A stretch of DNA of 64,000 nucleotides from the human T2T-CHM13v2.0 reference genome, Homo sapiens. Location of the stretch: NCBI RefSeq assembly GCF_009914755.1, contig NC_060945.1; one strand, written 5' to 3'. The first letter of the stretch is position 1; each line of letters starts with the position of its first letter. Below are positions 25,380 through 53,205 of this stretch, piece after piece. Made by a program: the position numbers and the translations under genes. The notes under the pieces were generated by a model that was not told the origin of the DNA, searched no databases, and saw only the letters and a list, made by a program, of their open reading frames with translations.

Positions 25380-26035
25380 TGATTTGTGGAGTCTCGGGCT
25401 CCCTGGAAACCTTTCAGGGGGCTCATAAGGTCAAAACTGTTTTCATAATGATATGGAGCCATTCTTTCCTTTTTCACTGTGTGGACATTTGCACTGATGG
25501 TGTAAAAGCAATGGCAGGTGCTTTGACACAAATCAAGACCATGGCACCAAACTCTACTGACAGTCATCATACTCTTCACTGTCACCCACTCGCATACAAA
25601 AAGCCAACAACATTTAAGAATGTTCTTGATGAAGTCGTAGGAATGATTAATTTTATTAAATTTTGACCTGTGAGTACATGTGTTTTTAATATTCTGTGAG
25701 ATGGAATTGAAAGTTTGCATAATGTACTTTGGCAGATGGAACTACAATGATTGTTTGAGGAAAAGCACTTGTGCTTTTTTTGGGTTAGGAGTTAAACTAG
25801 CTCCTCTTTTAATGGAACACTGTTTTTACTTTAAAGAACAACTGACAGACAAACCATGGTTATTCAGACTTGTATTTTTGGCATAAAATGTCTGAAAATT
25901 GAACTAACTGAGCCTGTTACTTCAAAGGAATTAACTGCCTGTGTTTGTTGCAAATGATAAAATTGAATTTTCAGGCAAAAGTTAGAATTGTGGAAAACTT
26001 GTATCTGTCATGGTGAGCTTGACAGCCTTCCAATA
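25380..26035 (+). mobile_element. Charlie1a (hAT DNA transposon), 5' half
   Basis: cctttcagggggctcataaggtcaaaactgttttcataat near the 5' end; transposase-derived FYFKEQLTDKPWLFRL; ends at gagcttgacagccttccaaTA. Confidence 0.85.
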
Positions 26036-26461
26036 TAGGCATCACTCATTTTATTGCACTTTACAGAATTTTTTTTTTAAACAAATTTAAGGTTTGTGGC
26101 AACCCTGCATCAAGAAAGTCTTTCAGTGCCATTTTTCCAATAGCATTGCTTACTTCATGTCTCTGTGTCACATTTTAGTACTTCTCATGATATTTCAAAC
26201 ATTTTCATTATTATTATATCTGTTATGGTTATCTGTGGTCAGCGATCTTTGTTACTATTGTAATTATTTTGTGGTGCCATGAACTGTGCCCATATAAGAT
26301 GTTCTATGTGTTCTGACTGCTCCACAGCCGACCATTCCATCTGTCTGCTTCTCTTGGGGCCTCCGTATGCCCTGAGACACAACAATATTGAAATTGGGCC
26401 AATTAATAACCCTTCAGTGGCCTCTACATGTTCAGGTGAAAGGAAGGGTTGCACATCTCTC

Positions 26462-26762
26462 ATTTTATTTATTTTTTATTTTTATTTTTGAGACAGAGTC
26501 TCACTCTGTTCCCCAGGCTGGAGTGCAGTGGTGTGATCTCAGTTCACTGCAATATCTGCCTCCTGGGTTCAAGCTATTCTTGTGCCTCAGCCTCCCGAGT
26601 AGCTGGGATTACAGATGCATGCCACCATGCCTAGCTAATTTTTTGTATTTTTAGTAGAGGCGGGGTTTCGCTATGTTGGCCAAGCTGGTCTCCAACTCTT
26701 GGCTTCAAGTGATCCACCTGCCTCAGCCTCCCAAAGTGCTGCGTTAGCCACTGCGCCTGGCC
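26462..26762 (-). mobile_element. AluS SINE inside Tigger1
   Basis: Full dimer with a small deletion. Confidence 0.92.
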
Positions 26763-27759
26763 ACGTCTCCCACTTTAAATGAAAAACTAGAAATGATTAA
26801 GCTTAGTGAGGAAGGCATGTTGAAATCCCAGACAGGCCGAAAGCTGGGCCTCTTATGCCAAACAACCAGGTTATGAATGGAAAGGAAGTTCTTGAAGTAA
26901 ATGAAAAATGTTACTCCAGTGAACACACAAAGGATAAGAAAGCGAAACAGCCTTGTTGCTGATATGGAGAAAGTTTGAGTGGTCTGGATAGAAGGTGCAA
27001 CTAACCACAACATTGCTTTAAGCCAAAGTCCACTCCAGAGTAAGGCCCTAATGTGCTTCACTTCTATGAGGCTGAAATAGATGAGGAAGATATAGGAGAA
27101 TTTGAAGCTAGTAGAGGTTGGTTCATGGGATTTAAGTAAAGAAGTCTCCGTAACATAAAAGTGCAAGGTAAAACAGCAAGTGCTGATGTAGATGCTGTAC
27201 CTTGTTCTCCAGAATATGTAAGAGAATAGATGAAGGTAGCTACACTAAGGAACAGATTTTCAATGTAGACAAAATAGCCTTCTATTGAAAGACCATGCCA
27301 TCTAGGACACCCATAGCTAGAGAAAAGAAGTCAATGCCTGGCTTCAAAGCTTTAAAGGACAGGCCGACTCTTTTGTTAGGGCCTAATGCAGCTGATGACT
27401 GTAAGTTGAAGCCAGTGCTCATTTACCATTCCAAAACTCTAGGATCCTTAAGAATGATGCTAAATCTACTCGGCCTGTGCTCTATACGGGAACAACAAAG
27501 CCTAGATAACAGCACATCTTTATAGCATGGTTTACTGAATCTTTTAAGCCTTCTCTTGAGACCTGCTGCCCAGAAAAAGGTTCCTCTCAAAATATTACTG
27601 CTTATGAACAATGCACCCGGTCACCCAAGAGCTCTGATAGAGATGTGCAAGGAGATGAATGCTGTTTTCATGCCCATTAACACCGCATCCATTCTGCAAG
27701 CCATGGGTCAAGGAGTAATTTTGACTTTCAAGTGTTACTACTTAAGAAACACATTTTGT

Positions 27760-49730: not shown

Positions 49731-51066
49731 TCAGGTTTTCTGATTTCATTTCTGTAGTCAAGAAGCTGAGGGACAGGACCCATGCATGCCAGTGACAATG
49801 TTTGATGAGTCTGGTGGGAGGCTCTGCAATAGCAGGAAAAGCTCCCTGGGTGCTTCTGCTCTGAGACAGGAGATCTAAACCAGATGATTTCTCAGGACAC
49901 TTGGATTACTAATATTCTGTGGTCAATGATGCCCTTAGGCCCTGAAAAATCCTGTCTTTTTAGAAAGACAATCATATTTAATGTGTTCTAGGGAATAAAT
50001 CAGAAACTTAGTCTTACGGTTTAAGGAATTTTCTAATAATGATCTGGAAACTGAAAGGGAACGCATTAATCAGAATTCTCTGTTCCCTGGATTCCCAATA
50101 GAAGAGATGTTCCTGTATTTCCACAAGGAGCCCTGGAAGCAGCCCACAGATGGAGAGGACTGAGGCCAAGTGAGGATGAGTACACAGCACCCCCTGTACT
50201 GTGATCTTGGGCCTGTGTCCCACACCCTCCACAGGGACAGTTCCTTCTGCAAGGTGCCCGCCCAGCAACAACCACCTCTCCGGTGCTAACAGACCTTTTT
50301 TTTCTCCACTGCGCAGTGTGCCATAGGTATCCCGTGCATGTGAGTGAGCCAGCCAGAGAGCTCCATGTCCCGATACCAGGCAGTGAGATGTGAATTCCTG
50401 TCTAGGGCTGTAACCTGCCAGACTGCTTCCAGCCTACATGAAGGCTGGTCACTCCCTCCTTCTCAGGCACTGCGTCCCTCAGCCCAGAGCCTTCTGTAGA
50501 GAGCTGCTGTGGCTCCAGCTTTCCCATCTCCTCCACCATTTTACATCTTCTTAGGCAGCCTTTCAGTGGAGAGCTTGTCCTACCAACATTTTCTCCCTCC
50601 TAAAGTACTGAAAAAAACCCTTAGGAGCGAAAAATCATCTGCAGTATCCCTGATCCCCTTCTCAGAACAGCACAGTGTCCCCACCAAGTGCTAATAAATG
50701 TTGTTGGATAAGAGAACAATTTGGTTTAAATCTCCTCTCACAGAGCAGAATCGCCTGGAGGGATTTTGCCTTGAAAATTAAATTCTGATATCAATTTCTA
50801 AAATTATTTACAATATTAAAGTTGAAATGAATCCATCACACAGTTTCCTTCCAATGTTAGTCTTTCAAGTGAACCTACTTTCCTATTAGCAGTCACCTAA
50901 AAACAAATAAGCAAACAAACAGGTAACTCAGTCTTCCCTCTGACTCAGTGTGAGGAAAGGGACAGGCAGCATCTGGTGACAGCTTACTTCAGTGGGTCTC
51001 CATGGTTCTTCACCAAAACCACTTGTGTTTCCTCTTCAAGCACCACAGTATCCTATGACACTAGGC

Positions 51067-52093
51067 CAGTGGGCTCTCAAACTTTTGGAATTCAGGACTC
51101 CTTTCCTCTCAACTTCTTAAGTTGGGTTCTATCTATTGATAGTTACATTACTTGAAATTAACACAGATATTTTAAAATTATTCAGAAATTCATTTACAAT
51201 AATAATGAACCCATTATATAATAAAAACATTTTATTATTTATTTATTGAGACAGTTTCATTTTCTCTTTTTGAGACAGACTCTTGCTCTGTTGCCAGGCT
51301 GGAGTGCAGTGGCACAATCTCGGCTCACTGCAACCTCTGCCTCACAATCTCAAGCGATTCTCCTGCCTCAGCCTCCTAATTAGCTGGGATTACGGGTGTG
51401 CGCCACCACACCAGCCTAATTTTTTATTTTTAGTAGAGACGAGGTTTTGCCATGTTGGCCAGGCTGGCCTTGAACTCCTGACCTCAAATGATCTGCCCAA
51501 TTTGGCCTCCCAAAGTTCTGGGATTACAGGCATGAGCCACCTCACCCAGCCCCAAAATAACATTTTAATAAAAAGAACTATATTTTATAAAACAAAAATA
51601 AATTAGTGAGGAGAATTTCTAGAACTCTTTAATGTCAGAATTACTATGACAGCTTGATTCTCCTATGTCCTTCTGCATTAATCTGTTGCGATACATTGTT
51701 CTGATTGAATTATGTGAAGAAAACCCAGCCTCACATGAATAGGTGGCTAGAAACAAGAGGAGTATTTTCATAGCTTTATCAGATTATTGTAGATGTTCTT
51801 GTTAGATAGGGCATCAAAACTTGACAGGTGGTAGTTTCTTAAAGGTTAGTTGCAACATGGAGTCTGAAACACTATCAGTAAACTTGTAGTATTTTATTAC
51901 AGCCCATTGTCTGTCAGTCTTGCCCTGCAAACAAATATTTTACTATGCATGATTTTCATAACATGCATTAGTCATTTGGAAATATTATTCACTGAGTTAT
52001 GAAGATTTTCCTAACGTTAACACATTTCTGTATACAGTGTCAAAAAAAATCACTTGATAATTTCACCACTAAGCTCATCAGAAACATCAGGTA
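51067..52093 (-). mobile_element. Charlie1a, 3' half (inverted relative to its 5' half at 25380-26035)
   Basis: Terminal cagtgggctctcaaacttttgg; ggtagtttcttaaaggttagttgcaacatggagtctgaaac; ends at the TA flanking Tigger1. Confidence 0.87.
51262..51551 (-). mobile_element. AluS SINE inside Charlie1a
   Basis: Full dimer. Confidence 0.9.
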
Positions 52094-53205
52094 TAGGCAA
52101 ATCTCGGAGCTATTGCAGGTTATGTTCCAGACCACCACAATAAAGCAAATATCAAAGCAAGTCACATGAATTTTTTGGTTTCTCAAGGCAAACAAAAGTT
52201 ATGTTTACACTCTAGTCTATTGTGTGCAATAGCATTATGTCTAAAAACAATGTATGTGCCTTAATTTTAAAAATACTTTATTGCTAAAAAATGCTAATAA
52301 TCATCTGAGCCTTCAGTGAGTCATCATCTTCTCACTGGTGGAGAGTCTTACCTGGATGTTAATGGCCGCTGACTGATCAGGGTGATGATAGTTGCTGAAG
52401 GCTGGGGTGGCTATGGCAATTTCTGAAAATAAGACAACACTAAAGTTTGCCACATCAATGGACTCTTCCTTTCACGAAAGTTTTCTCTGTAGCATGTGAT
52501 GCTGTTTGATAGCCTTTCACCACGGTATAACTTCTTTCAAAATTGGAGTCAGTCCTCTCAAACCCTGCTGCTGCTTTAGCAACTAAGCTTATGTAATATT
52601 AATATTCTAAACCCTTTGTTGTCATCTCAACAATGTTCACAGCATCTTCACTACTAGTAGACTGCATCTCAAGTAACCACTTTTCTGCTTCTCATCCATA
52701 AGAAGCAACTCCTTATCCATTCAAGTTTGATCATGAGATTGCAGCAATTCAGTCACATCTTCAGGCTCCACTTCTAATTCTAGTTCTCTTGCTGTTTTCA
52801 CCACATCTGCAGTGACTTCCTTCAATAAAGGATGGAACCCCTTAAAGGCATCCGTGAGGGTTGGAATCAACTTCTTCCAAACTCTGTTGATGTTGTGACC
52901 TCCTCCCATGAGTCACAAATGTTCTTAATGACATCGAGAACGGTGAATGCCTCTCAGAAGGTTTTCAATTTACTTTGCCCAGATCCATCAGAGGAATCAC
53001 CATCTGTGGCAGCTATAGCCTTACAAAATGTATTTCTTAAGTAGTAACACTTGAAAGTCAAAATTACTCCTTGACCCGTGTCTTGCAGAATGGATGCGGT
53101 GTTAACGGGCATGAAAACAACATTCATCTCCTTGCACATCTCCATCAGAGCTCTTGGGTGCATTGTTCATGAGCAGTAATATTTTGAGAGGAACCTTTTT
53201 CTGGG
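52094..53205 (-). mobile_element. Tigger1 3' half, an inverted near-copy of 27569-29320 without the two Alus
   Basis: TA plus TIR taggcaaatctcggag; ORF 52721-52909 differs from ORF 28165-28353 at 2 of 62 aa. Confidence 0.95.

What the first reader, a model, noticed from the sequence alone, without database searches (positions are those of the whole stretch)
25380..53205. ~24 kb inversion revealed by a Charlie1a transposon split in two, with breakpoints in inverted Tigger1 copies
Seen: Charlie1a runs on + up to ...gagcttgacagccttccaaTA (26035), where Tigger1 begins. The far end of that Tigger1 (29320) abuts L1, not Charlie. The missing Charlie half lies at 51067-52093 on the - strand and abuts the 3' TIR of a second, inverted Tigger1. 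Read on -, it continues TAcctgatgtttctgatgagcttagtggtga. Recalled Charlie1 consensus: ...GACAGCTTCCCAA-TA-CTTAAAGACTTTTCTGATGAGATCGGTGG..., so the halves join exactly at the TA target duplication of one Tigger1 insertion. Inference: the two ends of that original Tigger1 are now 26036 and 52094. A crossover with a second, opposed Tigger1 flipped the intervening segment, so this window shows the derived orientation. Such inversions usually involve segmental duplications, Alu or L1, so a fossil DNA transposon as substrate is unusual.
Basis: partly seen in the sequence, partly recalled or inferred. Interest (0 to 1): 0.85.

Follow-up and report, generated by a model that had tools for sequence, protein, structure and literature searches.

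The report
Old inversion between two Tigger1 fossils
A stretch of about 23-26 kb inside an intron of the human PCBP3 gene was flipped by recombination between two oppositely oriented fossil Tigger1 transposons, which still swap sequence with each other; this is a real but ordinary kind of rearrangement.

Summary
Its left part runs on + to 26035 and its right part on - from 52093 to about 51067. In 4 of 7 other genomic copies the two parts abut within about 4 nt, and all 7 are colinear. Each half touches a Tigger1 end at a TA.

T1 (26036-29320, +) is full length with three Alu insertions. T2 (52094-53205, -) is only the 3' 1.1 kb.

New here: the two Tigger1 copies are mosaics.
- Their last ~320 bp differ by 11-13% plus gaps, close to unrelated copies.
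- The inner ~790 bp are nearly identical: 3 mismatches in 605 bp and 6 in 167 bp. They share 84 derived changes.

So two old, independent insertions recombined (NAHR), inverted the spacer, and exchanged sequence again within the last few million years.

When the inversion happened is unknown. I found no polymorphic call here in two human inversion call sets. No outgroup genome was available. This is a new member of a known kind; interest is modest.

The parts
25388..26035 (+). It is 5'-truncated at about 25388-25411 and ends with the TA target at 26034-35.
   Evidence: 40 scored genomic matches out of 517 candidates, 71-78% identical; it aligns to 7 other copies up to the junction. No further piece of the family lies elsewhere in the window.
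26036..29320 (+). Tigger1 copy T1. Full length with both termini. Interrupted by three Alus (about 26468-26761, 27760-28035, 28784-29119). TA on both sides (26034-35, 29321-22).
   Evidence: colinear with the 12 genomic Tigger1 copies wherever they align; 6 of the 12 align in all four pieces, from about 26045-26079 to beyond 29255. Pfam DDE_1 in the + frame, 27526-27762, E=3.1e-11; termini read directly.
27569..28655 (+). T1 arm of the homogenised tract (27569-27759 and 28036-28655, split by the Alu at 27760-28035).
   Evidence: 6 mismatches in 167 bp and 3 mismatches in 605 bp against T2; 84 shared derived states, against at most 14 in 90 control pairs.
28656..29320 (+). T1 3' part that has diverged from T2 at about background level. 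It includes the Alu at 28784-29119, which has a target-site duplication.
   Evidence: 14 mismatches in 127 bp and 24 in 190 bp, plus gaps; 12 shared states against 29 private to T1 and 31 private to T2; the Alu target duplication is visible.
29321..52093 (.). Unique inverted segment (22.8 kb) between the two Tigger1 copies. It starts with an old L1 fragment (antisense on +) and ends with the right half of the split repeat.
   Evidence: L1 is 65-82% identical to other copies. AT skew is -0.13 inside, against +0.17 and +0.13 in the flanks.
51067..52093 (-). Right (3') part of the same split repeat element, inverted, with an Alu at about 51238-51573. TA at 52092-93.
   Evidence: its first bases continue the left part within about 4 nt in intact copies.
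52094..53205 (-). Tigger1 copy T2. Only the 3' 1.1 kb. The homogenised tract is 52418-53205 and the diverged 3' end is 52094-52417. Homology to T1 stops abruptly at 53205.
   Evidence: Pfam DDE_1 in the - frame, 52957-53166, E=1.6e-8; no further Tigger1 sequence in 53206-64000.
53206..54100 (.). Right flank Y. Nearly unique, GC-richer sequence that is neither L1 nor Tigger1. It marks a deletion of T2's 5' part and of the L1 remainder.
   Evidence: only 9 short weak genomic matches; no hit from the 11 L1 loci or the 12 Tigger1 loci in 53206-56900.

Best explanation
Proposed history:
1. A Tigger1 (A) inserted at a TA inside an older repeat element.
2. A second Tigger1 (B) inserted in the opposite orientation about 23 kb away, at a TA in an old L1.
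3. Non-allelic homologous recombination (a crossover) between the two inverted copies flipped the spacer. The left half of the split element now faces a hybrid Tigger1 whose far end abuts the L1. The right half, inverted, abuts the other hybrid copy.
4. The pair has continued to exchange sequence by gene conversion, at least twice, on either side of an older Alu present only in T1. The inner ~790 bp are therefore almost identical today.
5. A deletion removed B's 5' part and the adjoining L1 remainder.

The whole structure lies in an intron of PCBP3 with no annotated exon inside, so it is probably neutral.

Shown: the anatomy, the complementarity of the halves, and the mosaic identity.
Inferred: the order of events, the crossover itself, and all dates.
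For: Split element and Tigger1 copies:
- The split halves are complementary and in opposite orientation.
- Both abut Tigger1 termini at TA with no footprints.
- T1 is colinear with full-length copies and T2 is a 3' fragment in the opposite orientation. DDE_1 remnants lie on + and - respectively.

Mosaic identity:
- The 3' 324 aligned columns carry 12 shared derived states, against 29 private to T1 and 31 private to T2. Pairwise mismatch is 11-12.6% plus gaps.
- The inner tract carries 84 shared derived states, against at most 14 in 90 control pairs. It has 3 mismatches in 605 bp and 6 in 167 bp.
- T2 is 77-81% identical to the other genomic Tigger1 copies over all 38 listed alignments of 790 bp or more, but 97% identical to T1.
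- T1/T2 is the only repeat pair of at least 92% identity in the window.

Age of the exchange:
- The Alu inside the tract is 8.6% diverged from the local Alu majority. That is far older than the tract's homogenisation, yet it is absent from T2. Separate exchange tracts on each side are therefore needed.

Deletion:
- Deletions accompanying TE-mediated inversions are common. Lee et al. 2008 report them in 75 of 252 inversions (passages read).
Against: - No outgroup or second human genome could be compared, so neither the ancestral orientation nor the date was observed directly.
- The reciprocal test failed. The sequence right of T2 is not the missing L1 half.
- The split element lacks its 5' end, so its 8-bp target duplication cannot be matched.
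- The crossover point leaves no trace. The switch at about 28656/52417 may be only a conversion boundary.
- Near-identity runs right up to the edge of homology at 53205, with 34 identical bases. This also fits a copy-and-join repair event.
- The 3' parts are slightly more alike than any of the 90 control pairs: 81% against 66-79%, and 12 shared states against at most 11. Full independence of the two insertions is therefore not proven.
Confidence: 0.78

Rival explanations
1. Inversion by two non-homologous or staggered breaks (or by replication template switching) that duplicated the 3' part of a single Tigger1 in inverted orientation. On this view there was never a second Tigger1 insertion.
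For: - T2 is only a partial copy, and its homology to T1 ends abruptly at unique sequence with identity right up to the edge.
- The 3' parts are marginally more similar than the control pairs.
- Y is not the expected L1 half.
Against: - The 3' 324 columns have 60 private against 12 shared derived states. They have therefore been separate for most of the element's age, while the inner tract is young. A single duplication cannot give both.
- The duplicated block would have to end exactly at the transposon terminus plus TA, next to the L1.
- The Alu inside the tract is absent from T2 although it is older than the tract identity.
Confidence: 0.08
2. Transposase-mediated (alternative transposition) inversion while Tigger1 was active. 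The two facing 3' ends were cut and the intervening DNA was rejoined the other way round, so the breakpoints lie at the element termini and not inside the elements.
For: - It gives the same gross arrangement. Both new junctions would lie exactly at Tigger1 3' termini, as observed.
- Such events are known for other cut-and-paste elements (recalled, not looked up).
Against: - Both junctions are clean terminus + TA, without excision footprints.
- The two flanks are not halves of one target site.
- Ectopic homologous exchange between exactly these two copies is directly visible, so NAHR needs no extra assumption.
Confidence: 0.07
3. No inversion. Two unrelated fragments of the same repeat family, each truncated by its own Tigger1 insertion, happen to look complementary.
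For: The family is abundant (517 first-look candidates). The shared 8-bp target duplication could not be checked.
Against: It would need all of the following:
- the same consensus position within about 4 nt;
- complementary sides;
- opposite orientation;
- a Tigger1 5' end on one piece and a 3' end on the other;
- two Tigger1 copies that have demonstrably recombined with each other.
Confidence: 0.01
4. Assembly artefact: the interior was mis-oriented between two similar repeats.
For: The flanking repeats share about 0.8 kb of near-identity.
Against: - The repeats are short relative to long reads (established knowledge, not tested here).
- The arms differ by an Alu, an 8-bp indel and diverged 3' ends, which makes them distinguishable.
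- No call at these coordinates turned up in the supplement text of the T2T remapping study or of a 65-genome study. These were number-prefix and ID-prefix searches only, and the second file was cut when stored.
Confidence: 0.01

Closest known systems
Retrotransposon recombination-mediated inversion (L1 or Alu pairs) between human and chimpanzee, Lee et al. 2008, PMC2603318 (abstract and passages read)
   Same: Two oppositely oriented copies of one interspersed repeat span the two breakpoints. The result is copy-neutral and is often accompanied by a deletion (12 of 49 such loci; 75 of 252 inversions overall).
   Different: - The substrate here is a cut-and-paste DNA transposon fossil, about 11-13% diverged from the majority of 12 copies, not an L1 or Alu.
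- That paper's main text mentions no DNA transposon or Tigger (0 occurrences).
- Whether our event separates human from chimpanzee is unknown.
Human polymorphic inversions mediated by short inverted repeats (InvFEST HsInv series; Aguado et al. 2014, PMC3961182; Giner-Delgado et al. 2019, PMC6748972)
   Same: Inverted repeats of under 1 kb and high identity flank a few to tens of kb. An example is HsInv0040, with 755-bp repeats, 99.9% identity and a Tigger1 piece among the repeat content (supplement passage). NAHR with gene conversion and recurrence is the accepted mechanism.
   Different: - This locus is not in those sets. The main texts do not mention PCBP3, 21q22 or chromosome 21.
- The only chr21 entry found in the Giner-Delgado supplement is HsInv0045 at 26.9 Mb (2 of 14 files not searched).
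- No polymorphism was found here in the two call sets I could query.
Concerted evolution of inverted repeats and 'inversion toggling' in apes
   Same: Arms kept alike by gene conversion remain NAHR substrates over long periods.
   Different: Those cases involve segmental duplications of many kb. Here only about 0.8 kb of two transposon fossils is kept alike. Toggling was not tested.

Membership tests
Tigger1 (pogo / Tc1-mariner cut-and-paste transposon fossil) | pogo-type DDE transposase remnant in the orientation of the element | tested here: met
   Pfam DDE_1 (PF03184) in T1 on the + strand (27526-27762, E=3.1e-11; 27289-27522, E=1.1e-3, below the cut-off) and in T2 on the - strand (52957-53166, E=1.6e-8). 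Hits came from 3 of the 9 Tigger ORF pieces scanned.
Tigger1 (pogo / Tc1-mariner cut-and-paste transposon fossil) | TA target-site duplication flanking the inverted termini | tested here: met
   TA at 26034-35 and 29321-22 around T1, and TA at 52092-93 next to the T2 3' end. The T2 5' end is missing. TA is too short to pair up the sites.
Tigger1 (pogo / Tc1-mariner cut-and-paste transposon fossil) | Colinear similarity to the dispersed genomic family of about 2.4 kb elements | tested here: met
   5067 first-look candidates, 40 scored, 77-81% identical over 1.1 kb. T1 is colinear with the 12 copies wherever they align, 6 of them in all four pieces. The name 'Tigger1' itself is recalled; no repeat library was available.
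Charlie1a (hAT transposon fossil), the split element | hAT transposase or dimerisation domain | tested here: inconclusive
   No Pfam hit in the 4 ORF pieces from the window or in the 16 ORF pieces from 7 other genomic copies. One chance-level FANCI_S4 hit at E=0.043. The pieces are short and decayed.
Charlie1a (hAT transposon fossil), the split element | 8-bp target-site duplication and terminal inverted repeats | not testable with these tools
The element's 5' end is absent from the window. Only the end at about 51067 is present.
NAHR inversion between inverted repeats | Breakpoints lie within a pair of inverted homologous sequences | tested here: met
   T1 and T2 are inverted, share 1.1 kb, and bracket the flipped segment defined by the split repeat.
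NAHR inversion between inverted repeats | Evidence of homologous exchange between the arms (chimeric or converted arms) | tested here: met
   there is a sharp switch from 0.5-3.6% to 11-13% divergence at about 28656/52417. The tract has 84 shared derived states, against at most 14 in controls.
NAHR inversion between inverted repeats | The alternative (ancestral) orientation is seen in an outgroup or in other individuals | not testable with these tools
   No other primate or human assembly was available (one search states that the genome has no relatives held). The literature supplements gave no call at this locus.

The most novel reading that the evidence does not exclude
Gene conversion has kept about 0.8 kb of two roughly 11-13%-diverged Tigger1 fossils at 96-99.5% identity. 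This has turned a long-dead DNA-transposon pair into a live NAHR substrate.

The latest exchange left 3 differences in 605 bp. With recalled ape substitution rates that is roughly 0.5-8 million years ago. That exchange could be the crossover itself. If so, this would be a hominin- or hominine-specific inversion, or one that toggles among apes, in the first large intron of the brain-expressed PCBP3 gene.
Probability: 0.2. Interest if true: 0.5.

Novelty: new member of a known kind. Interest (0 to 1): 0.3.

Why it matters
- It is a clean worked example that a nested, split transposon can reveal an inversion from a single genome, with no outgroup.
- It shows that very old DNA-transposon copies can remain recombination substrates when gene conversion keeps part of them alike.
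- The practical value is limited. The inversion lies in an intron, contains no annotated exon, and was not found to vary in the human call sets I could query.
- If ape genomes show the other orientation, it would add one small lineage-specific or recurrent inversion to existing catalogues.

Tried and rejected
1. Matching the 8-bp target duplication of the split element. Impossible, because its 5' part is absent from the window.

2. Reciprocal junction test, asking whether the L1 at 29323 continues right of T2. No L1 or Tigger1 sequence lies in 53206-56900. Y is nearly unique ([output cut], 40, 56).

3. Pfam support for a hAT identity of the split element. None. One search failed because the frames contain stops; I then used stop-free pieces.

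4. Base-composition skew as an orientation clock. The interior has the opposite AT skew to both flanks. This mainly reflects the orientation of a few L1 pieces, and the first 3 kb of the interior do not follow it. It is suggestive only and gives no date.

5. Literature search for a known inversion here.
- 'PCBP3' + 'inversion' returned 9 papers, none about this locus judging by titles and abstract starts.
- Aguado 2014 and Giner-Delgado 2019 main texts: nothing.
- Giner-Delgado supplement: only HsInv0045 on chr21 (2 of 14 files not searched).
- Porubsky 2023 supplement: phrase searches across tabs do not work (searches are uninformative). A number-prefix search found no chr21 coordinate in 44.03-44.09 Mb.
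- Logsdon 2025 supplement (cut when stored): no chr21-440, chr21-456 or chr21-457 INV identifiers.
- Macaque Strand-seq supplement: not readable.
- Macaque-human table of PMC11092980: no coordinate starting 4570 or 4571, and the single '4569' hit is a length. This rests on an hg38 offset that I recalled, and not all '4567' hits were shown.
- 'Tigger1' + 'inversion' + 'homologous recombination' returned 4 papers, none on evolutionary inversions judging by titles and abstract starts.

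
Full report
**What is there**

The window is T2T-CHM13 chr21:44,020,001-44,084,000, inside PCBP3 (hub annotation; one search gives the same place in the held assembly). 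I read the three junctions directly.
- A repeat piece on the + strand ends ...ccaaTA at 26035.
- At 26036 a Tigger1 5' terminus begins.
- This copy (T1) ends at 29320, followed by TA (29321-22) and an old L1 fragment.
- At 52094-53205 a second Tigger1 (T2) lies on the - strand. Its 3' terminus is at 52094, preceded by TA (52092-93).
- Left of that TA lies a second piece of the first repeat, on the - strand, running down to about 51067.

**Are the two repeat pieces halves of one element?**

A search of the window's own genome with 25700-26035 found a dispersed family (517 first-look candidates, 40 scored, 71-78% identity). I compared both pieces with the 7 other copies fetched (L002-L008).
- In all 7 loci the left piece and the reverse complement of the right piece align colinearly on one strand.
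- In 4 of the 7 (L002, L003, L004, L008) the alignments come within 10 nt of the junction and are adjacent.
- In a multiple alignment the intact copies carry 4-6 nt between the conserved block that ends the left piece and the block that starts the right piece. The window has the TA plus 2 nt there.

So the halves abut within about 4 nt, do not overlap, are similarly diverged (67-78%), and lie in opposite orientation. No other piece of the family is in the window, and the element's 5' part is missing. The 8-bp target-duplication test therefore could not be done. I could not confirm the name 'Charlie1a' or a hAT identity: there were no Pfam hits in 4 window ORF pieces and 16 ORF pieces of other copies.

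**The two Tigger1 copies**

- T1 is colinear with the 12 other genomic Tigger1 copies wherever they align. Six of the 12 align in all four of its pieces, from about 26045-26079 to beyond 29255.
- T1 is interrupted by three Alus (about 26468-26761, 27760-28035, 28784-29119).
- T2 corresponds only to the 3' 1.1 kb. Homology stops abruptly at 53205 / T1 27569. No further Tigger1 sequence lies in 53206-64000.
- Pfam DDE_1 remnants sit on + in T1 and on - in T2.

**The new observation: mosaic identity**

T2 is 77-81% identical to the other genomic copies in all 38 listed alignments of 790 bp or more, but 97% identical to T1 over 753 bp. T1/T2 is the only repeat pair of at least 92% identity in the window. 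The alignment breaks down as follows.

| Segment (T1 coordinates) | Mismatches / aligned bp | Divergence |
|---|---|---|
| 27569-27744 | 6 / 167, plus an 8-bp indel | 3.6% |
| 28051-28655 | 3 / 605 | 0.50% (95% CI 0.10-1.45%) |
| 28656-28783 | 14 / 127, plus gaps | 11.0% |
| 29120-29320 | 24 / 190, plus gaps | 12.6% |

The switch at about T1 28656 / T2 52417 is sharp.

I compared both copies against a majority of 12 other copies.
- The inner tract holds 84 derived states shared by T1 and T2 and few private ones. Among 90 control pairs the maximum shared is 14.
- The 3' 324 columns hold 12 shared states, 29 private to T1 and 31 private to T2.
- That 3' part is therefore essentially independent. 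It is still slightly more alike than any control pair: 81% against 66-79% identity, and 12 shared against at most 11. Four of the 12 shared states occur in none of the 12 references.

**Reading**

The diverged 3' ends mean that two separate old insertions exist. By adjacency to the split repeat, T1's 5' end and T2's 3' end belong to the original insertion A. T1's 3' end, next to the L1, belongs to a second insertion B. An arrangement with the left half, then a whole Tigger1, then the L1, and further on the inverted right half, then an inverted Tigger1, is exactly what a crossover between inverted copies produces. The near-identical tract shows that these very copies do undergo ectopic homologous exchange.

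The Alu inside the tract (27760-28035) is 8.6% diverged from the local Alu majority (non-CpG 5.9%; 19 Alus compared). It is thus much older than the tract identity, yet T2 lacks it. The two sides of the Alu also differ in divergence (3.6% against 0.5%). At least two exchange events, one on each side of the Alu, are therefore needed.

The central tract's 0.5% divergence corresponds to roughly 0.5-8 million years, using ape substitution rates that I recalled. This dates the last exchange, not necessarily the inversion. The inversion could be as old as the elements themselves, with later gene conversion.

**What could not be shown**

- The reciprocal flank test failed. The sequence right of T2 is nearly unique and is not the missing L1 part. 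A deletion must therefore have removed B's 5' part and the L1 remainder.
- Such deletions are frequent at TE-mediated inversions: 12 of 49 L1/Alu-pair loci and 75 of 252 inversions overall in Lee et al. 2008 (passages read).
- No other primate or human assembly was available.

**Rivals**

- A single Tigger1 with an inverted partial duplication (staggered breaks or template switching). The abrupt edge at 53205 fits this. The old 3' divergence, the clean terminus + TA at the L1, and the Alu argument do not.
- A transposase-mediated flip at the two 3' termini. It gives the same map but predicts footprints, and it needs an event for which there is no sign here.
- Coincidence and mis-assembly. Both are very unlikely.

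**Known or not**

I found no record of this inversion.
- 'PCBP3' + 'inversion' gave 9 papers, none relevant judging by titles and abstract starts.
- Two InvFEST-based studies do not include it.
- The supplement of a T2T-based remapping of 41 genomes holds no chr21 coordinate in 44.03-44.09 Mb.
- The held part of the supplement of a 65-genome study has no chr21 INV identifier near here in either reference (file cut when stored).
- A macaque-human inversion table shows no matching end coordinate. That check rests on a recalled hg38 offset and an incomplete listing.
- The macaque Strand-seq supplement was unreadable.

Supplements I could not see may still list it. Taken together, the arrangement looks fixed in sampled humans. 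The weak macaque result, if valid, would favour an older inversion.

**Verdict**

The kind of event (NAHR between inverted interspersed repeats, with gene conversion) is well known. The substrate, a fossil DNA transposon pair kept partly alike by conversion, is a less common variant. Interest is modest (0.3) unless ape genomes show it to be lineage-specific or recurrent.

Noticed in passing
window 29323-51066 versus 1-25387 and 53206-64000: The AT skew (T-A)/(T+A) is -0.13 in the inverted interior, but +0.17 and +0.13 in the two flanks. This fits A-rich L1 sense strands having been turned round relative to the gene. The first ~3 kb of the interior do not follow the pattern, so it is only suggestive.
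   Followed up: partly
window 5947-6337 and 59859-60253 (also 14295-14588): A second inverted repeat pair, 88.7% identical over 397 bp and about 54 kb apart, brackets the whole region. A third copy in direct orientation is 90.2% identical. The family was not identified. These stretches are among those masked in NCBI's file.
   Followed up: no
window 53039-53205 (T2) versus 27569-27744 (T1): T2 carries an 8-bp deletion inside the DDE_1 remnant relative to T1. It is a handy marker for telling the two arms apart in PCR or read-based genotyping.
   Followed up: no
window 53255-53365: The first 160 bp right of T2 give short matches of 74-87% identity to a few scattered genomic places. This is probably a very old interspersed repeat. 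The rest of 53206-54100 is unique.
   Followed up: partly
window 49230-49601: A repeat of about 370 bp in the interior matches flank sequence of two unrelated loci (L006, L007) at 74-78% identity. The family was not identified.
   Followed up: no
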